From contig CAZPHK010000004.1 of assembly GCA_964586015.1 (NCBI GenBank), positions 1 to 61,101 of the forward strand: a stretch of 61,101 nucleotides of DNA, written 5' to 3'. The DNA is from an uncultured Acidobacteriota bacterium. Lineage in GTDB: Bacteria > Acidobacteriota > UBA6911. This document shows, one piece after another, positions 313-8,529 of the stretch. The notes beneath the pieces are model-generated. The model saw only the letters and a program-made list of their open reading frames with translations. It had not been told where the DNA came from and did no database searches. The first letter of the stretch is position 1; each line of letters starts with the position of its first letter. Made by a program: the position numbers and the translations under genes.

Positions 313-936
313 CTATTGTTTTCTATAGACCTGTTTCTGGACAGTCCGGATCGTAGGAACTCTACTCTTTACCGACATGCTGTTCGATATTTCCAGTTTC
401 AGCGTCCGGCCGTCTTTCGAAAGGGAAAACTCTTTTGTCAGGGTGCTTTCCCCTTGAGGATAGGGTGTTTTGATTTCGAGCTTGATCTTCCTTTTCTTCG
501 AGCTTGCTTTGACCGTCTGCTCGACTCCTTCCGGAGTATCAGGTATTTGAACCGTTTTCTCGCGCTTCTTTCCGTCGAGAATATAGCGATCGGTAATCAA
601 CGTTTCTTTTCCATTGACGTTAATCCTGGTGATGATTGTTATCGCGTTCCGGGATTGTTTGATGACCAAAGGAGCATTCGGGTCCTGCTGCTGCGGCCGC
701 ACGCCTCCTATGGGAATGCTTACGGAGTATCCGCTGCCACCCATTCCGCCGCTGCCCCTGCTGACGTCAACAGGTGTTCCCCCCATGTTCATTATGTTGA
801 CAGGCTTTGGAACGGGATCGCTTTCTTCGATGTCGAGAATCCACGTTCCGGAAAAATCGGAGTTTCCGTCTTCCGCCCCTGCATTCAGCGCCAGGAATAG
901 TACCGCCAAACCACAAGCAACGGCCGAGGGTTTCAT
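313..936 (-). CDS. Secreted hypothetical protein (beta-rich, with a Gly/Met-rich loop)
   Basis: AGGAGG RBS before ATG at 936; signal peptide MKPSAVACGLAVLFLALNAGA; DFSGTWILD motif like lipocalin-type barrels; internal GGMGGSG loop. Confidence 0.75.
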   Translation of the reverse strand: MKPSAVACGLAVLFLALNAGAEDGNSDFSGTWILDIEESDPVPKPVNIMNMGGTPVDVSRGSGGMGGSGYSVSIPIGGVRPQQQDPNAPLVIKQSRNAITIITRINVNGKETLITDRYILDGKKREKTVQIPDTPEGVEQTVKASSKKRKIKLEIKTPYPQGESTLTKEFSLSKDGRTLKLEISNSMSVKSRVPTIRTVQKQVYRKQ

Positions 937-1005
937 GGGATACCTCCTTTTGCGTTTTCCTTGCATTATACGCTTTTTTAATCTGAAATCAGGCTGTATC
1001 TCGGA

Positions 1006-1344
1006 CTAGCCGATCGGTTTGTATTTTCTCGGATCCTTAGGATTTTTCGGCTTGTATGAATAGGGCTCGGGTGAAGGCACATGGTCCGCCATAGGCGGAG
1101 AGTAATTATAGTCCCGCGGACGATTCGCGGAGTCTTCGCTGTCCCGACGGATTTTTTTTGCTATGTTGACGATAAACGGAACTACAAAGAGTAACGGTGC
1201 ATAGGCTTTATATTCAAGGGGCAACAGCGCACCGAGCAGGAATACTCCCGCCAGTATCAGGGCATTCAGCTGCCACGGCTTCCGGGTCTTTTCCGGGGCA
1301 TCCGGGGTGTTATCGTTTCCGAAGAGATCCTTTTCTCCCGCCAT
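1006..1344 (-). CDS. Small hypothetical membrane protein (2 TM, Pro/Lys-rich tail)
   Basis: GGAGG RBS upstream; two hydrophobic segments; same orientation as the preceding gene. Confidence 0.65.
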   Translation of the reverse strand: MAGEKDLFGNDNTPDAPEKTRKPWQLNALILAGVFLLGALLPLEYKAYAPLLFVVPFIVNIAKKIRRDSEDSANRPRDYNYSPPMADHVPSPEPYSYKPKNPKDPRKYKPIG

Positions 1345-1908: not shown

Positions 1909-2841
1909 TTATTCCGGTTCGGATTGTTTGATCTTTATCAGAGGAAACCGGACCTTTCCATTAACCTTATTTATAAGGACGGCGGCGGAATAGCCCTGGG
2001 GATGCACCAGCCTGGCGTATAAATCCAGATCGTTGTCCGGATCGTCCTTCGTAAAATCGACAATAAACCCGTCGTCGACAATTATGTCGATTGTCAGATC
2101 CAATACCTGGTAGTCTTTAAGAAAACCTTCTATATGCATGTTCTCCCTGGCCGGCACTCCTATATGCGTCAGTTCCTTTAAAATACTTTTCTTTACCGCG
2201 GAATAATCGAATTCGTATTTTGACTTTTCAATGGAGTCCTTTACTATATCAAATATCGTATCAATCTCCCGGGAAGATAATTGGGAAGGAGTGGGAATAA
2301 TTTTCAGCGCTCTTTTAATGAACACCTGCGTGATGTAGTAATTATTGTCCCCTGCGGTCTTGTAGACGCCCACGCCTGTTTCGGTTACATCGGCGTTCAG
2401 AATATTGTCCCGGTGGCCCGGGCTTTCCATCCAACGCCTGATGGACTCTTCCGCGATTTCCGTAAATTCGTTGCTTGTGAATAGATTTTCAGCGGAGACG
2501 GTAAAGACAATGCCGGCTTTTTCCAGGCGGTCATGGACCTGTTCTCCTTCCGGATTCACGTGCGCAAAATAATCCCTGACGGCCATATCTTCCGAATATT
2601 TGCGCGCAACCTCCGCGACGTCGGACGCCCATGTCAGCTCCGGAAGGCCGTGTTTTTTCCTGATTGCGTTCACTTTGGTGTAAATGACAGCCTCAGTGGA
2701 TTGCACGAGGCTTATGTGCGGTGCGGCGTGTGAGGAAAACGGGTACGCGCTGTTTGCTCCGATTGCGGATAAAATAACCGCCAGCAGCATCCATCCGGCT
2801 CGACTGTAAAAGCTGACTTTGGACCGGATCCGTTCTTCCAT
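1909..2841 (-). CDS. CAP/SCP-domain secreted or membrane-anchored protein with a C-terminal degenerate GxxExxY-like domain
   Basis: N-terminal hydrophobic segment; CAP motifs NAIRKKHGL, YFAHVNPEG, AENL, WMESPGHRDNIL; extra C-terminal domain of about 120 aa. Confidence 0.85.
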   Translation of the reverse strand: MEERIRSKVSFYSRAGWMLLAVILSAIGANSAYPFSSHAAPHISLVQSTEAVIYTKVNAIRKKHGLPELTWASDVAEVARKYSEDMAVRDYFAHVNPEGEQVHDRLEKAGIVFTVSAENLFTSNEFTEIAEESIRRWMESPGHRDNILNADVTETGVGVYKTAGDNNYYITQVFIKRALKIIPTPSQLSSREIDTIFDIVKDSIEKSKYEFDYSAVKKSILKELTHIGVPARENMHIEGFLKDYQVLDLTIDIIVDDGFIVDFTKDDPDNDLDLYARLVHPQGYSAAVLINKVNGKVRFPLIKIKQSEPE

Positions 2842-2920
2842 GGCAACACACCCTTCAAGTAAAGTGTAGCACCTCATAACGCTTTGCTTAAGGCGGCAAT
2901 CCGCATTTCTCAAAGGGACT

Positions 2921-4177
2921 TCAGCGGATTTCCAGCACTCCCTGCGTCCTGAGTGTGAGCGGCTGGATGCAGTCTTTCCCGAATATTGCCGTCATGAGAC
3001 GCGAATAATCCTCGAAATGATCCTTGTGGATATAGGACTGAACGGTACCGGCGAATCCGCCTCCGTGAATCCGGGACACCCCGCGGCCTCGTGACTGGAA
3101 AAAATCGTTGGATATACCGATCGCAAGCGCCGCCGGTTGAACGTTTGCGGCTTTGTCCGGAGGGACGGTGTTCTGAAGCATGCTGTTTGAAGACGCTCCG
3201 CTTTCGGCCACCAAACGCAGATAGGCGTCGAACCTTTTGGCTTTCAGGGCTTCCACCATCATGGCGACACGGCGATTTTCCGCATAGAAGTGCAGCGCCC
3301 TGAGCACGGCGCGGTCTCCGGCGTTCGCCCGGACCCTGCCGATGTTTGCGCGAAACGTTTCCTCCCCGACCTCGCGTAACGTGTTTTTCCCGAATAAGGA
3401 TGCTGCCTGCTTCATTTCATTCGGAATGGACGCATACGCCGCGGTGAGATCCGCATGACTTCCTCCGGTATCGACGACAACGAGAATATAGTCCGTTTGA
3501 CCGAAATCCACAGGGACCTTTTCAATAGCCGGGTTTTCGTCGTCCTCGAAATCGATGGCCAGAACGCCGCCGACTGCGGACGCCAATTGATCCATTAGAC
3601 CGCACGGCTTGTCGAAATGGACATTCTCGGCATACTGCCCGATTCTGGCTAATGCAACCGGATCGATCGCGCTTTCGTTATACAACGCGTTAAATATTCC
3701 GCCGATAAGAACTTCGAAGCCGGCCGAGGACGAAAGTCCTGAACCGATGGAGACATCGCTGTGAACGACTGCGTTGAAACCTCCTGTTTGAAATCCCCGC
3801 TTTTTCAATCCAGCCGCTACCCCGCGGATCAGGGCGTCCGTGGTTCCTTTCTCCTCTTTTCTCGGATCAAGTGAAGAAAGGTTGATTTCGCACAGTTGTG
3901 GAAAGGCCGAGGACTTCAGTTTGACCTGATTGTCGGATCGGGGTTCGAATGCTCCGAACGCATCCCGGTTGACCGCGGCACAGAGCACTTTCCCATGGTT
4001 GTGGTCTGTGTGGTTCCCGCCCAGTTCCGTTCTTCCCGGAGCCGAAACGTAACGCGGCGAGTCCGGGGCTCCGAAACGTTCGGAATATTCGCGTGTCAGG
4101 GCATGATATTTTTTTCGCTGCGCACTCAGGCCGGCGGCTCCGTAGAGCTCAACCAGCCTGTCGTCCTGTATGCCCAT
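2921..4177 (-). CDS. galK: Galactokinase (GHMP kinase)
   Basis: APGRTELGGNHTDHN galactokinase signature, GSGLSSSA ATP loop, GGGFAG motif. Confidence 0.92.
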   Translation of the reverse strand: MGIQDDRLVELYGAAGLSAQRKKYHALTREYSERFGAPDSPRYVSAPGRTELGGNHTDHNHGKVLCAAVNRDAFGAFEPRSDNQVKLKSSAFPQLCEINLSSLDPRKEEKGTTDALIRGVAAGLKKRGFQTGGFNAVVHSDVSIGSGLSSSAGFEVLIGGIFNALYNESAIDPVALARIGQYAENVHFDKPCGLMDQLASAVGGVLAIDFEDDENPAIEKVPVDFGQTDYILVVVDTGGSHADLTAAYASIPNEMKQAASLFGKNTLREVGEETFRANIGRVRANAGDRAVLRALHFYAENRRVAMMVEALKAKRFDAYLRLVAESGASSNSMLQNTVPPDKAANVQPAALAIGISNDFFQSRGRGVSRIHGGGFAGTVQSYIHKDHFEDYSRLMTAIFGKDCIQPLTLRTQGVLEIR

Positions 4178-4187
4178 GGTTCTATGC

Positions 4188-5726
4188 CTACCAGAAGATA
4201 ACGTAAAGGACCAGAGTCACTGCGATGACCGCAATCCCGATGTATTGAACCGACTTTGCCAGCCTGATGTCTTCAAATCCCTCACGTACCGGCATCACTT
4301 TCGGCGACTCGAGCGGTTTCAGTATCGTAAGCAGAGCCATAATTGCCAGAATCAGAGCGAAGGTTATAGCCATTCTGTTTAAAAACGCCACGTTCTTTGC
4401 GGTGAAAAATAGGATTCCATAAATCACGGGACTGGCGATCAGGGCCGTTACCCCCGCTGACGGGGGGCTTTTCTTAAACACCATTCCGAACACGAACGCC
4501 GCGAGAATTCCGGGCGAAACGAAGCCCTGGAACTCCTGGATATAGTTGAAGATTCCCTGGAAACGCGGATTCCCCAACTGCGGCGCGATGAAGCATCCCA
4601 GAACCACGAGGACCAGCGTCATTACGCGTCCCATCGTAACCAGCGATTTTGGGGAGGCGTCTTTCTTCATGTGGCGCTTGTACAGGTCCATCGTGAATAT
4701 TGTGGACGCCGAGTTGAGCATCGAAGCCAGCGAGCTGATGACCGCGCCCGCAATGGCGGCGAAGATAAATCCGCGGACGCCTATGGGAATCAGGTGACGG
4801 ATCAAAAGCGGATAGGCGGCATCCGGCGTCGCCGCCAGCTGGTCGCTGTAAAGCTGATAGGCCATGATGCCCGGAAAAATTACAATAAACGGGATCAGGA
4901 GTTTCAGAAACGCCGCGAACATGACGCCCATCTGGCCCTGGCGAATCGACTTGGCCGCGAGACTGCGCTGTGTGATGTACTGGTTGAGTCCCCAGTAGTA
5001 GAAATTGGGAATCCAGAGCCCGACGATCAGGGCCGTCCATGGCAATACCGGGTGATCGGCGGGCAGGATCATGTGAAGACGGTCCGCGTTCGCGGTCATG
5101 AAACTGTCCACGCCGCCGACCGCGGAGAAACCGATTCCCAGTACGACAAGGCCGCCTACAAGCAGTGCGCCGCCCTGGAACAGGTCGGCCCAGGCAACCG
5201 CTTTCAAGCCTCCCCAGGTTGTGTACAGGGCCGCAATGCCGCCGATCAGCCAGACGGCGGTCCAGAGATTCATGTCAAATATCGTTTTGATTGTCAGGGC
5301 ACCGGAATAGATCACGGCTGAAATGGTCACGCCGACGTAAATGACAAGCGTATATAATGCCATCAATCCCCGCGCAGCGGTGTTGTACCGGTGTTCGAGA
5401 TATTCGGGCATTGTAAAGATGCCGCTCCTTAAAAACCGCGGCAGGAAAAAGAAAGCAACGAAAACGAGCGTAATCGCAGCCATCCATTCGTAGCTGGCGA
5501 CCGCCAGGCCGACATTGCTGGCGCCCTGACCGGCCTGTCCGACAATTTGTTCCGTCGAGATATTGGCCGCTATCAGGGACAGGCCGATCATGGGCCAGAG
5601 GAGCCCGCGGCCTGCAAGAAAGAAGTCTTCGCCCGACTCCTCCTTGCGGCTTTTGTACATGCTCACCCCGACGACGATCAGAAAGAAGAGCAGAAAGGAT
5701 GCAATATCGAAAAGGCTCAGTTCCAT
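4188..5726 (-). CDS. Sodium:solute symporter (SSS family), probably sugar/galactose
   Basis: FFLAGRGL, SLIAANISTE, YEWMAA, YTTWGGLKAV, WGLNQYITQR, AAVISS-type motifs; many TM helices; 10 bp upstream of galK. Confidence 0.93.
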   Translation of the reverse strand: MELSLFDIASFLLFFLIVVGVSMYKSRKEESGEDFFLAGRGLLWPMIGLSLIAANISTEQIVGQAGQGASNVGLAVASYEWMAAITLVFVAFFFLPRFLRSGIFTMPEYLEHRYNTAARGLMALYTLVIYVGVTISAVIYSGALTIKTIFDMNLWTAVWLIGGIAALYTTWGGLKAVAWADLFQGGALLVGGLVVLGIGFSAVGGVDSFMTANADRLHMILPADHPVLPWTALIVGLWIPNFYYWGLNQYITQRSLAAKSIRQGQMGVMFAAFLKLLIPFIVIFPGIMAYQLYSDQLAATPDAAYPLLIRHLIPIGVRGFIFAAIAGAVISSLASMLNSASTIFTMDLYKRHMKKDASPKSLVTMGRVMTLVLVVLGCFIAPQLGNPRFQGIFNYIQEFQGFVSPGILAAFVFGMVFKKSPPSAGVTALIASPVIYGILFFTAKNVAFLNRMAITFALILAIMALLTILKPLESPKVMPVREGFEDIRLAKSVQYIGIAVIAVTLVLYVIFW

Positions 5727-5873
5727 GGCTCTATTCTCCGGATGATGAACGAAAGGTTTGTGAGGAATATATAGCTGTGCCGCATCCCTGTATGTTCGAA
5801 TGTTTTATGCCGTATAAGCCGGCTCGCCGGCGAACGGGCCGGTGTAAAAATAAAAGTTATTACCGGATCTGTA

Positions 5874-5887
5874 GTAAAATCGCTTCC
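5874..5887. promoter_or_regulatory. Candidate LacI-family operator 1
   Basis: GTAAAATCGCTTCC, AAnCGnTT core, in the divergent SSS/GH2 intergenic region. Confidence 0.3.
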
Positions 5888-5945
5888 GAAATCGGGGTGA
5901 AATTTCATAATCCACCTTATTGAAACAAACGGGAGCAACCCGATA

Positions 5946-5959
5946 GTAAACGATTTTTC
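5946..5959. promoter_or_regulatory. Candidate LacI-family operator 2
   Basis: GTAAACGATTTTTC; resembles the reverse complement of site 1 (GGAAGCGATTTTAC). Confidence 0.3.
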
Positions 5960-6015
5960 AGAAAACGGGCATTCATTTTTCCCAAAATGCGGCTCAGGCA
6001 TGGAGGAGCAGACCA

Positions 6016-8529
6016 ATGGATATCAGCCGACGCAGTCTTTTCAAACAGGCGGCCGGAAGCATGGCGTTCTTATCGGTGTTGAAATCTTCTAATTTTGTTC
6101 ATGGGCAGGCGCCGGATTCAAGCAGGGAACTTCCCCCAAGGATGCGGGAAAGTTTCGACTTCGGCTGGAAATTTATTCGTGGAGATGTGCCCGGCGCCCA
6201 GAATCCCGGATTTGACGACGCCTCCTGGCGCAGCGTCGACCTCCCGCATGACTGGAGCATTGAAGGACCGGTCGATGAAACGGAGCCGTCCGGGGGGGCG
6301 GGCGGATACTTTCCGACCGGAATCGGCTGGTACCGCAAACGATTCGAGCTGCCTGAATCCTTTAAGGGCCGCCGGATCGTTGTCGAATTTGACGGCATCT
6401 ATCAAAACAGCGAAGTATGGATCAACGGGGAGTATCTGGGGAGGCGCCCCTACGGGTATATCCCGTTTTCCTGCGATTTGACGCCCCATATATCTTTCAA
6501 CCGGGAGAATGTGCTGACCGTAAAGGTGGACAATTCACGCCAGCCCGGCTGCAGGTGGTACTCCGGGTCGGGAATCTACCGGCACGCATGGCTTCTGTCG
6601 ACAAATCCGCTTCATGTGGGTTACTGGGGCACATTCATAACCTTTCCCAAAATAGCCGAAGATACGGCGACGGTGCGAATCAAAACCAGGGTTGAAAACG
6701 ATGGGCCGGTCTCTGACGACTGCACACTGCTCAGCTGCATCATCGACCGGGATGGAAATACCGTCCAGTCTGAGGAAACAGCGCAGCAAATAGGCGCCGG
6801 ACAGGAATACCTGTTCGTGCAGCAGATAACGGTAAAGGATCCCAACCTCTGGTCCGTGGAAGATCCCTGTCTCTATCGCGTTCGCAGCACGGTCCGGCAG
6901 GCGGGCCGGGTTGTGGACGAATACGATACGCCCGTCGGAATTCGCGAAGCCGCGTTCGATGCCGACAGGGGATTTCTGCTGAACGGGAAGCGGGTCAAGT
7001 TGAACGGAGTCTGTCTGCACCATGACGCGGGCTGTGTGGGCGCGGCCGTCCCCGACGCCGTCTGGGAGCGCCGTCTGAAGATACTGCGCGAAATGGGCTG
7101 CAACGCCGTCCGCACCAGCCATAATCCCTATTCCGCGGAGTTTATGGACCTCTGCGACCGTATGGGATTCCTGGTTATGGACGAAGCCTTCGACGAGTGG
7201 AAAGTCGGCAAGGGGCAGGTCCGCGGAAACGGCTACAGCAACTATTTTGATGAATGGCATGAGCGGGATGTCAAAAACCTGATTCACCGCGACAGGAACC
7301 ATCCCTCGGTAGTAATATGGAGCGCCGGCAACGAGGTCCCCGACCAGTCGCATGCCCGGGGCGCCGGGACATTGCGCAAGCTGCTCGACATCTTCCACCG
7401 GGAAGACCCGACCCGGCCGGTGACCGTAGGATGCGATCAGATCATGTCGGAACCGCTCGCCAACCGGGTCCGACCCGAGTTTCTCGCCCTGCTCGATGTG
7501 GTCGGCTACAACTACGTCGACCGCTGGCGCGATCGGAAAGAGAAGTATTACAGCATCGACCGTGAAGCGTTTCCCGACAGGCGCGTCATCGGCACGGAAA
7601 GCGGCTCCATGGGAGGCATCCGGGGCGACTACAGCGGGCTTTTCCCCTCGGAGTCTCCCGGCGGTTTTTTCGGGTACTCGCCGGGCCGGGGGATCGATGT
7701 GGAACAGCAGTGGAAGTTTGTACGGACATACGACTACGTCGCGGGCGATTTCATGTGGACCGGCATCGATTACCTTGGAGAGGCATTCTGGCCCTCCAAA
7801 GGGGCCGCAAGCGGCGTCATCGACAGCTGCGGTTTTCCCAAAGACGGATTCTATTTCTACCAGAGCCAATGGACAGACAAGCCGGTCCTTCACCTGTTTC
7901 CCCACTGGAACTGGAAAGGCAGGGAAGGGCAGTTCGTGCCGGTGACCTGCTACACCAACTGCGATACGGTGGAGTTGTTTCTCAACGGCCGCTCCGTCGG
8001 CGTGAAGGGATACGCCTTTCCCCGTCCGGGAATGGAAGAACGATGGGGCAACGTGCCGGCGCGGGCCCGGGTTCTTCGGACTACGGCCGACCTGCATTTG
8101 TCGTGGGATGTGCCCTACGAACCGGGAACATTGAAGGCGGTGGGAACCAAAGACGGGAATGTCGTCGCTACGCGGGAGGTTTCCACAGCCGGGGAACCGG
8201 CGGCCGTTGAGCTGTCGGCGGACCGGAACAACATTTCGGCTGACCGGTGCGATGTTGCGCATTTCACGGCCAGAATCGTGGATGCCCGGGGAATCGTTGT
8301 CCCGACGGCCGACAGCGAGGTGGCCTTCGAAATCGAGGGGCCGGGTAAACTGATCGGAGTCGACAACGGCGACATGCGAAGTCACGAAGATTACAGGGCC
8401 AAAAACCGGAAAGCCTTTCACGGTCTGTGCCTGGCCATAGTGCAGGCCGCCGCCGAACCGGGCCGGATTCGTCTGAAAGCCCTATCTCCCGGTCTGAAGC
8501 CCGGCTCGGCGGCAATCACAACCGCATAA
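6016..8529 (+). CDS. Glycoside hydrolase family 2 (beta-galactosidase-like), Tat-type signal
   Basis: LPHDWSIE, GIGWYRK, NGVCLHHDAG, NAVRTSHNP, DRNHPSVVIWSAGNE, WTGIDYLGE; N-terminal SRRSLFK; GGAGGAG RBS. Confidence 0.95.
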   Translation: MDISRRSLFKQAAGSMAFLSVLKSSNFVHGQAPDSSRELPPRMRESFDFGWKFIRGDVPGAQNPGFDDASWRSVDLPHDWSIEGPVDETEPSGGAGGYFPTGIGWYRKRFELPESFKGRRIVVEFDGIYQNSEVWINGEYLGRRPYGYIPFSCDLTPHISFNRENVLTVKVDNSRQPGCRWYSGSGIYRHAWLLSTNPLHVGYWGTFITFPKIAEDTATVRIKTRVENDGPVSDDCTLLSCIIDRDGNTVQSEETAQQIGAGQEYLFVQQITVKDPNLWSVEDPCLYRVRSTVRQAGRVVDEYDTPVGIREAAFDADRGFLLNGKRVKLNGVCLHHDAGCVGAAVPDAVWERRLKILREMGCNAVRTSHNPYSAEFMDLCDRMGFLVMDEAFDEWKVGKGQVRGNGYSNYFDEWHERDVKNLIHRDRNHPSVVIWSAGNEVPDQSHARGAGTLRKLLDIFHREDPTRPVTVGCDQIMSEPLANRVRPEFLALLDVVGYNYVDRWRDRKEKYYSIDREAFPDRRVIGTESGSMGGIRGDYSGLFPSESPGGFFGYSPGRGIDVEQQWKFVRTYDYVAGDFMWTGIDYLGEAFWPSKGAASGVIDSCGFPKDGFYFYQSQWTDKPVLHLFPHWNWKGREGQFVPVTCYTNCDTVELFLNGRSVGVKGYAFPRPGMEERWGNVPARARVLRTTADLHLSWDVPYEPGTLKAVGTKDGNVVATREVSTAGEPAAVELSADRNNISADRCDVAHFTARIVDARGIVVPTADSEVAFEIEGPGKLIGVDNGDMRSHEDYRAKNRKAFHGLCLAIVQAAAEPGRIRLKALSPGLKPGSAAITTA

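What the first reader, a model, noticed from the sequence alone, without database searches (positions are those of the whole stretch)
1909..2290. CAP protein fused to a degenerate GxxExxY (PD-(D/E)xK-like) domain
Seen: after the CAP domain comes ...KKSILKELTHIGVPARENMHIEGFLKDYQVLDLTIDIIVDDGFIVDFT...AAVLIN. Known: GxxExxY proteins read ...EALxxELxxRG...QVPIxVxYKG...ADLLVExxVIVELK...GLLIN, and the spacing here matches closely. The GxxExxY motif itself and the catalytic ExK (here DFT) are lost. Inference: an inactivated nuclease-like fold recruited onto an exported CAP protein, an architecture I do not recognise.
Basis: partly seen in the sequence, partly recalled or inferred. Interest (0 to 1): 0.6.

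Follow-up and report, generated by a model that had tools for sequence, protein, structure and literature searches.

The report
Exported CAP protein with dead nuclease-fold tail
A rare exported bacterial CAP-domain protein carries at its C-terminus a 130-residue domain, invisible to Pfam, that folds like a restriction-endonuclease (PD-(D/E)xK, GxxExxY-like) nuclease but has lost the catalytic residues, so it most likely serves as a binding or assembly module.

Summary
Window 1909-2841 (minus strand) encodes a 310-aa protein with three parts: an N-terminal signal-like hydrophobic segment, a CAP/YkwD-like domain (PF00188, E 3e-22), and a C-terminal ~130-aa domain with no Pfam or NCBIfam match.

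About 36 relatives of the C-terminal domain exist in the 5.8- and 1.8-billion-protein collections. Every full-length one is CAP-fused. They fall in two groups, one with an Acidobacteria (UBA6911) record and one with an Omnitrophota record.

AlphaFold2 on the 32-sequence alignment gives a confident model (pLDDT 89) with the alpha-beta-beta-beta-alpha-beta core.
- Foldseek against viral models: small PD-(D/E)XK nucleases at E 1e-6.
- Protein-language-model neighbours are PF13366 (GxxExxY) for two members only 33% identical.

Only the beta-2 Asp survives (30/31). The GxxExxY Glu, the ExK Glu and the Lys (Thr in 26/31) are gone.

The function is inferred, not shown. It is a modestly interesting new variant of a known fold in a new architecture.

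The parts
1909..2841 (-). Coding sequence of the CAP + pseudo-nuclease protein (310 aa plus stop). The ORF is open up to a TTG at 2913, but ATG 2841 is the likely start.
   Evidence: ORF list. Homologues of ~305-310 aa start at the aligned Met (MEER/MKER). A GAAGGG Shine-Dalgarno-like motif lies 9 nt upstream of ATG 2841.
2722..2841 (-). N-terminal export signal or signal anchor: a basic n-region (RIRSK..SR), then the hydrophobic core AGWMLLAVILSAIGA, then small residues (ANSA / SHAA).
   Evidence: All 22 full-length family members examined have a hydrophobic 15-residue window (KD 1.3-3.3) near the N-terminus; all but one (P0023) have a positively charged n-region before it, and in P0029 it sits at residue 73 after a long extension. 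No signal-peptide predictor was available, so cleavage is inferred.
2320..2676 (-). CAP (SCP/PR-1, YkwD-like) domain.
   Evidence: PF00188, E 3.2e-22, 80 bits (cut-off 21.1), residues 80-198 of the ORF. TIGR02909 YkwD scores 89.9 bits, below its 171-bit cut-off. The His/Glu positions H118, E142 and H167 are invariant in close homologues.
1912..2310 (-). Conserved linker (RALKIIPTPSxLS) plus the C-terminal ~130-aa domain with a PD-(D/E)xK (restriction-endonuclease-like) fold, GxxExxY-like and catalytically degenerate.
2086..2088 (-). Asp (D75 of the domain, D276 of the ORF), aligned with the beta-2 catalytic Asp of GxxExxY proteins. It is the only catalytic-site residue retained.
   Evidence: hhalign register. 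D in 30 of 31 family members. Codon GAC read directly.
2050..2058 (-). D-F-T, standing where GxxExxY proteins have E-x-K on beta-3. This is the lost catalytic motif.
   Evidence: hhalign register. Family columns: position 85 is D10/N10/K9/R1/Y1; position 86 is F in 31/31; position 87 is T26/A2/S2/M1 and never K.

Best explanation
The gene encodes an exported (periplasmic or secreted, possibly N-terminally anchored) two-domain protein. An intact YkwD-type CAP domain is followed, through a conserved Pro/Ser linker, by a domain with the PD-(D/E)xK nuclease fold.

That domain most probably descends from, or shares a close ancestor with, the small GxxExxY (PDDEXK_3) nucleases. It has lost three of the four catalytic-site residues: the helix-1 Glu of GxxExxY, and the Glu and Lys of ExK. 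Only the beta-2 Asp remains.

It therefore most likely does not cut nucleic acid. It more likely works as a non-catalytic module (ligand or partner binding, or self-association) that positions or pairs the CAP domain in the cell envelope.

Shown here: the architecture, the fold, the loss of the motif, the conservation, and the rarity. Inferred: export, descent from GxxExxY specifically, lack of nuclease activity, and the binding or assembly role.
For: Architecture:
- CAP hit, and no family hit for the tail.
- The tail is as conserved as the CAP part: 60-63% identity to the same homologues in both. It is therefore under selection and is not a decaying extension.
- Every full-length relative in two exhaustive protein searches carries PF00188.

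Fold:
- AF2 gives pLDDT 89 and pTM 0.83, with the alpha-beta-beta-beta-alpha-beta core.
- Foldseek BFVD: G8DDC4 at E 9.1e-7, and R4TGU4 'PD-(D/E)XK nuclease' (131 aa) at E 1.3e-6, TM 0.58.
- The non-significant Foldseek PDB list is also almost purely PD-(D/E)xK.

GxxExxY affinity:
- ESM-Atlas feature neighbours are PF13366 clusters (score 0.94; at least 25 of 30 hits) for the window domain, and likewise for a 33%-identical member.
- hhalign score 28.2, P 3.7e-4, against 13.5-18.8 for Uma2, UPF0102 and HSDR_N_2.
- Both clades give the same register on their own.

Dead site: residue counts.

Export: N-terminal hydrophobic segment in all full-length members.

Precedent for non-catalytic PD-(D/E)xK modules appears among the structural hits: CidB ND1-ND2 (7esy), Rep15 (8a4a) and mitoribosomal proteins. 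A studied bacterial relative of the CAP part, DalA, is an outer-membrane lipoprotein that binds peptidoglycan non-covalently (PMC10470522); the NF052539 match here is E 1.6e-11, far below its cut-off.
Against: - No curated HMM for any PD-(D/E)xK family matches the domain.
- hhalign probability is only 28-36%, and one of 100 shuffles reached 25.8 against the real 27.1.
- Foldseek against the PDB found nothing at E <= 1e-3.
- No GxxExxY structure is solved, so the family-level structural comparison rests on predicted viral models whose Pfam family I could not verify.
- D75 and E61 are conserved, and the window protein has Asp at position 85, so a residual metal site cannot be excluded.
- Net charge of the domain varies from -11 to +12 across members, which gives no consistent hint of a nucleic-acid ligand.
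- No conserved gene neighbours across clades point to a partner.
Confidence: 0.7

Rival explanations
1. The domain has the PD-(D/E)xK fold but is not specifically derived from GxxExxY proteins. It is an independent, highly divergent branch of the superfamily, and the GxxExxY-like spacing reflects the shared minimal core.
For: The best solved structural matches are 3ijm, Uma2/DUF820 proteins and type II restriction enzymes. The GxxExxY profile built here does not match 3ijm or any other PDB chain at E<0.1. hhalign probability to GxxExxY is only 28-36%. The motif that defines the family is absent.
Against: Among the four PD-(D/E)xK family profiles tested, GxxExxY scores clearly best (28.2 against 13.5-18.8), over 81 columns covering the whole core. 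Language-model neighbours are PF13366 for two divergent members. Size and element order match the ~120-aa minimal GxxExxY proteins.
Confidence: 0.2
2. The domain is still an enzyme: an exported nuclease or phosphodiesterase that uses a rearranged active site (D75, E61 and other conserved polar residues such as K40, Q105, Y107, S108) in place of the canonical ExK.
For: D75 is kept in 30/31 members, E61 in 25/29, K40 in 26/28; Q105, Y107 and S108 are near-invariant or invariant. From general knowledge, PD-(D/E)xK enzymes are known to relocate catalytic residues. The window protein has Asp at both positions 75 and 85.
Against: Position 85 is D, N or K in roughly equal shares, and position 87 is never Lys or Arg. 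By strand geometry, the QGYSA motif sits at the opposite end of the sheet from the ancestral site (inference). No member retains the helix-1 Glu.
Confidence: 0.1
3. The resemblance is convergent. The tail is an unrelated alpha/beta domain that happens to share the common alpha-beta-beta-beta-alpha-beta arrangement.
Against: Four different kinds of evidence agree: profile-profile, language-model features on two members, Foldseek BFVD at 1e-6, and a VIA list almost exclusively of one superfamily. The one conserved acidic residue falls exactly on the catalytic Asp column.
Confidence: 0.08

Closest known systems
GxxExxY proteins (Pfam PF13366 PDDEXK_3; NCBIfam TIGR04256)
   Same: Size (~120-130 aa). 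Order and spacing of elements: helix, ELxxxG helix end, beta hairpin with a conserved K (YKG/LKD), the beta-2 Asp (ADLLV/IDIIV), beta-3, helix, and beta-4 ending LLIN/VLIN. It is the best profile-profile partner of the four PD-(D/E)xK families tested and the nearest language-model neighbour.
   Different: The domain has no HMM match. The GxxExxY motif is absent, and ExK is replaced by x-F-T. It is always fused behind a signal sequence and a CAP domain rather than being a stand-alone protein. The window's genome also has one ordinary GxxExxY gene elsewhere (G000:C469:713-1063, 123 bits).
3IJM, restriction endonuclease-like fold superfamily protein of Spirosoma linguale (best solved structural match)
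   Different: 9% sequence identity. It is not detected by the GxxExxY profile or by sequence search with the domain. It is a stand-alone protein whose function is unknown to me.
Bacterial CAP/YkwD-type exported proteins (PF00188; TIGR02909), including the peptidoglycan-binding divisome lipoprotein DalA (NF052539; PMC10470522)
   Same: The N-terminal two-thirds has an export signal plus a CAP domain with conserved His/Glu positions.
   Different: It scores below the curated cut-offs of both the YkwD (89.9 against 171 bits) and DalA (44.3 against 200 bits) models. There is no consistently placed lipobox Cys in the signal region across the family (a few members have a Cys there). It carries the extra C-terminal domain, which I saw in no other CAP protein: 78 of the 80 CAP-bearing loci kept match only the CAP part (L040 matches full length; L053's extended match proved unrelated).
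Catalytically inactive PD-(D/E)xK modules used for binding (e.g. CidB ND1-ND2 of Wolbachia, 7esy; Rep15, 8a4a; structural subunits of the tRNA splicing endonuclease)
   Different: No sequence relationship. Those are intracellular eukaryotic or effector proteins. The ligand of the present domain is unknown.

Membership tests
PD-(D/E)xK (restriction endonuclease-like) fold superfamily | alpha-beta-beta-beta-alpha-beta core topology | tested here: met
   AF2 model (pLDDT 89): H36-49, E54-64, E67-78, E82-86, H91-101, E109-116.
PD-(D/E)xK (restriction endonuclease-like) fold superfamily | Structural similarity to solved or predicted members | tested here: met
PD-(D/E)xK (restriction endonuclease-like) fold superfamily | Catalytic signature D ... 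(D/E)xK (plus a helix-1 Glu in many families) | tested here: not met
   Only the Asp (D75, 30/31) is kept. The (D/E) position is D/N/K; the K position is Thr in 26/31 and never Lys; the helix-1 Glu position is variable.
GxxExxY / PDDEXK_3 (PF13366, TIGR04256) | Match to the curated HMM above its cut-off | tested here: not met
   No hit at E <= 10 in Pfam or NCBIfam. The whole-genome scan with PF13366 finds only C469:713-1063, not this gene.
GxxExxY / PDDEXK_3 (PF13366, TIGR04256) | GxxExxY motif on helix 1 | tested here: not met
   The aligned stretch reads FDYSAVK. The E column is N/Y/I/D and the Y column is L/V.
GxxExxY / PDDEXK_3 (PF13366, TIGR04256) | Profile-level homology over the whole domain | tested here: inconclusive
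   hhalign score 27-28, P 4e-4 to 6e-4, probability 28-36%, 80-81 columns. It is above all 160 shuffles, though one reached 25.8, and it is the best of the four families tested. Language-model neighbours are PF13366.
CAP / SCP / PR-1 superfamily (PF00188) | Match to the Pfam HMM above the gathering score | tested here: met
   80 bits against 21.1, E 3.2e-22, profile positions 3-117 of 117.
YkwD subfamily (TIGR02909) | Match above the NCBIfam cut-off | tested here: not met
   89.9 bits against a cut-off of 171. It is YkwD-like but not a member by the curated threshold.
CAP / SCP / PR-1 superfamily (PF00188) | Export signal (the family is extracytoplasmic) | tested here: inconclusive
   A hydrophobic core near the N-terminus is present in all 22 full-length members, preceded by a basic n-region in all but one. 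No dedicated predictor or experiment was available.

The most novel reading that the evidence does not exclude
The tail is the first recognised extracytoplasmic descendant of the GxxExxY nucleases. It would have been turned into a ligand-binding anchor, for example for extracellular or periplasmic nucleic acid or an envelope polymer, that targets or dimerises a CAP domain. Alternatively it keeps a re-wired metal site (D75/E61) with a new hydrolytic activity. Either way it would define a new domain family with a function unlike any known PD-(D/E)xK protein. Its occurrence in a few Acidobacteria (UBA6911-type) species and in Omnitrophota would then reflect horizontal transfer of an envelope factor.
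Probability: 0.15. Interest if true: 0.6.

Novelty: new variant of a known kind. Interest (0 to 1): 0.4.

Why it matters
- It adds a domain family that Pfam and NCBIfam do not see, and a domain architecture (signal + CAP + pseudo-nuclease) that I found described nowhere.
- It shows that the small, functionally obscure GxxExxY-type nuclease fold can be exapted outside the cytoplasm.
- Bacterial CAP proteins are poorly understood. A conserved partner domain gives a handle for finding what such proteins bind.
- The practical weight is limited. The family has only ~36 known sequences, a patchy distribution, signs of loss in close relatives, and no functional context.

Tried and rejected
- Full-length AF2 with 10 close homologues failed (pLDDT 34, even for the CAP domain). 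I therefore have no model of how the two domains pack.
- Sequence searches of the tail against Pfam, NCBIfam and PDB sequences gave nothing meaningful.
- Foldseek against the PDB gave no hit at E <= 1e-3.
- No GxxExxY structure is solved, by phmmer or by profile search. The family-level structural comparison therefore rests on predicted viral models.
- tblastn of a GxxExxY protein against phage genomes, meant to verify the family of the BFVD hit from Halogranum virus HGTV-1, found nothing.
- In L053 a CAP gene is followed by a separate 156-aa ORF that might have been a split form. It is unrelated (hhalign P 0.13).
- Gene neighbourhood gave no functional lead. The window has galK and a solute symporter upstream and a convergent 4HBT thioesterase downstream. 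L031 and L038 keep only the thioesterase. The Omnitrophota-clade (by protein identity) locus L040 has tilS upstream.
- Net charge gave no consistent hint of DNA binding.
- Earlier-findings look-up by sequence returned nothing.
- The paper search for GxxExxY found only incidental mentions.
The homodimer test of the tail and the contexts of most homologues could not be obtained.
- One sequence from an unpublished genome (G049, locus L020) was in the first GxxExxY profile. The locus from the unpublished genome G024 (L143) was left out of the UPF0102 profile.

Full report
**What is there**

The minus strand of window 1909-2913 is one open frame of 334 codons.

The likely start is ATG 2841. Homologues of 305-310 aa begin at the aligned Met, and a GAAGGG motif lies 9 nt upstream. 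This gives a 310-aa protein.

The protein begins with a basic stretch followed by a 15-residue hydrophobic core. Such a hydrophobic core is found in all 22 full-length relatives examined, preceded by a basic n-region in all but one. This fits a Sec signal peptide or signal anchor, although no dedicated predictor was available.

Residues 80-198 of the ORF are a CAP domain (PF00188, E 3.2e-22). It is nearest to the YkwD model but below that model's cut-off.

The last ~133 residues (window 1912-2310) match no Pfam or NCBIfam model, even at E 10, and no PDB sequence.

**The tail is a real, conserved, rare domain**

- A word-indexed search of 5.8 billion proteins restricted to the tail found 9 proteins, all with PF00188.
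- An exhaustive phmmer over 1.84 billion cluster representatives found only 8: three CAP-fused proteins of 243-308 aa and five short sequences of 68-130 aa covering only the tail.
- A profile search for longer proteins found 22, all with PF00188.
- A search for short proteins found only fragments: a 64-aa and an 85-aa piece on long contigs, a 130-aa piece on a 1.3-kb contig, and one odd 175-aa protein joining a glycosyltransferase fragment to the last two-thirds of the domain.

The tail is as conserved as the CAP domain: 60-63% identity in both for the same homologues. It is therefore under comparable constraint.

Two clades are visible.
- One includes the window and a MAG labelled Acidobacteria bacterium UBA6911 (L031).
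- The other includes proteins labelled Candidatus Omnitrophota.

Within the window's class, the domain was found in 3 of 137 genomes, all in the window's genus. One of those three is a 66-codon remnant at the syntenic position next to the thioesterase gene (L039). A profile search of 400 further genomes across the phylum (227 genera) found none.

**Fold**

A full-length model from 10 close sequences failed (pLDDT 34). The tail alone, with the 32-sequence alignment A3, gave a confident model (pLDDT 89, pTM 0.83). Its elements are strand 3-5, helices 13-29 and 36-49, strands 54-64, 67-78 and 82-86, helix 91-101, and strands 109-116, 119-121 and 124-126. This contains the alpha-beta-beta-beta-alpha-beta core of PD-(D/E)xK nucleases.

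- Foldseek against the PDB gave no significant hit. Its weak list is nevertheless almost entirely PD-(D/E)xK proteins.
- Foldseek against predicted viral structures gave G8DDC4 (E 9.1e-7) and R4TGU4, a 131-aa 'PD-(D/E)XK nuclease' (E 1.3e-6, TM 0.58, rmsd 4.3 over 122 columns).

**Relation to GxxExxY**

ESM-Atlas feature neighbours of the window's tail are PF13366 (PDDEXK_3/GxxExxY) clusters: score 0.94, 184 shared features, at least 25 of the 30 hits. The same holds for a member only 33% identical.

I built a GxxExxY profile from 25 genomic matches to PF13366 in the phylum and compared it with the tail-family profile.
- Column-shuffled templates score 12.2 +/- 2.1 (max 17.6, n=60).
- Without one sequence from an unpublished genome, the score is 27.1 (P 6e-4). 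The shuffles then score 12.2 +/- 2.8, with a maximum of 25.8 (n=100).
- Each clade alone gives the same register (22.7 and 26.5). So does the built-in comparison with smaller alignments (P 0.004).
- The same tail profile scores 13.6 against Uma2, 18.8 against UPF0102 and 13.5 against HSDR_N_2. As a yardstick, GxxExxY against HSDR_N_2 scores 43.3, and the other cross-family pairs score 10-23.

The tail is therefore closer to GxxExxY than most recognised clan members are to each other. It remains far below family-level similarity.

**The catalytic site**

In the hhalign register, the catalytic positions map as follows.
- The GxxExxY Glu falls on a variable column (N/Y/I/D).
- The beta-2 Asp falls on D75, which is kept in 30 of 31 members (codon 2086-2088).
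- The ExK Glu falls on position 85, which is D10/N10/K9.
- The ExK Lys falls on position 87, which is Thr in 26 of 31 and never Lys or Arg.

In the window the motif reads D-F-T (2050-2058).

The family has conserved features of its own: EGFLKD on beta-1, an invariant G81 and F86, and an invariant Y-S-A at the start of beta-4.

The one addition is that the Asp is retained.

**How it most likely works**

What is shown: an exported-looking CAP protein with a conserved, folded, nuclease-like tail that lacks the nuclease signature.

What is inferred: the tail is a pseudo-enzyme acting as a binding or self-association module for the CAP domain in the envelope.

Two observations make this reasonable but do not prove it.
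- Non-catalytic PD-(D/E)xK modules that bind proteins occur among the structural hits: CidB ND1-ND2, Rep15 and mitoribosomal proteins.
- One studied bacterial relative of the CAP part, DalA, is an outer-membrane lipoprotein that binds peptidoglycan (PMC10470522).

Two observations argue against, or fail to support, a specific ligand.
- The charge of the tail is not conserved (net -11 to +12), which argues against a simple DNA-binding role.
- Gene neighbours differ between clades, so context gives no partner. The window has galK and a symporter upstream with a convergent thioesterase. The genus relatives keep the thioesterase only. The L040 locus, whose protein is identical to P0027 of the Omnitrophota-labelled cluster, has tilS upstream.

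**Verdict**

- It is not a member of PF13366/TIGR04256 by any curated criterion.
- It has that fold, and most probably that ancestry, in a new, inactivated, exported and CAP-fused form.
- I rate it a new variant of a known kind, of moderate interest: a neat case of exaptation and a new unannotated domain family, but tiny, patchy and without a demonstrated function.

Noticed in passing
L039:1498-1698 (-) (G171, same genus as the window): Only the last 66 codons of the CAP-fusion gene survive here (64-aa protein P0038). They lie next to the same convergent thioesterase gene. An unrelated 296-aa gene occupies the place of the CAP part. The gene is being lost in close relatives.
   Followed up: partly
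P0037 (175 aa, 1176-bp metagenome contig): A glycosyltransferase-2 N-terminal fragment (PF00535) runs in frame into the last two-thirds of the pseudo-nuclease domain. It may be a deletion fusion or an assembly chimera. It is the only non-CAP partner seen.
   Followed up: no
window 1006-1344 (-): A small predicted membrane protein (112 aa, no Pfam hit) with a conserved Lys/Pro-rich C-terminus (...YKPKxPKDPRKYKP[IL]G). It is also present beside the thioesterase gene in L039 (608-994).
   Followed up: no
window 313-966 (-): A 217-aa protein with an N-terminal signal-like segment and no Pfam match.
   Followed up: no
window 2921-8529: A galactose-utilisation cluster directly upstream of the CAP gene: galactokinase (2921-4177, -), a sodium:solute symporter (4188-5726, -) and a divergent GH2 beta-galactosidase (6016-8529, +). 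The CAP gene starts 79 nt after the galK stop on the same strand. This adjacency is not conserved in the relatives.
   Followed up: partly
G000:C469:713-1063 (L001); G000:C97:5207-5686; G000:C249:5496-5768: The same genome carries one ordinary GxxExxY gene (123 bits to PF13366), one Uma2 gene and one UPF0102 gene. Canonical PD-(D/E)xK relatives therefore coexist with the degenerate fused copy.
   Followed up: partly
L053:5477-6586: In another metagenome contig a 207-aa CAP protein is followed 15 nt later by a 156-aa ORF with no Pfam hit. The ORF is unrelated to the pseudo-nuclease domain (hhalign P 0.13). It may be another uncharacterised CAP partner.
   Followed up: partly
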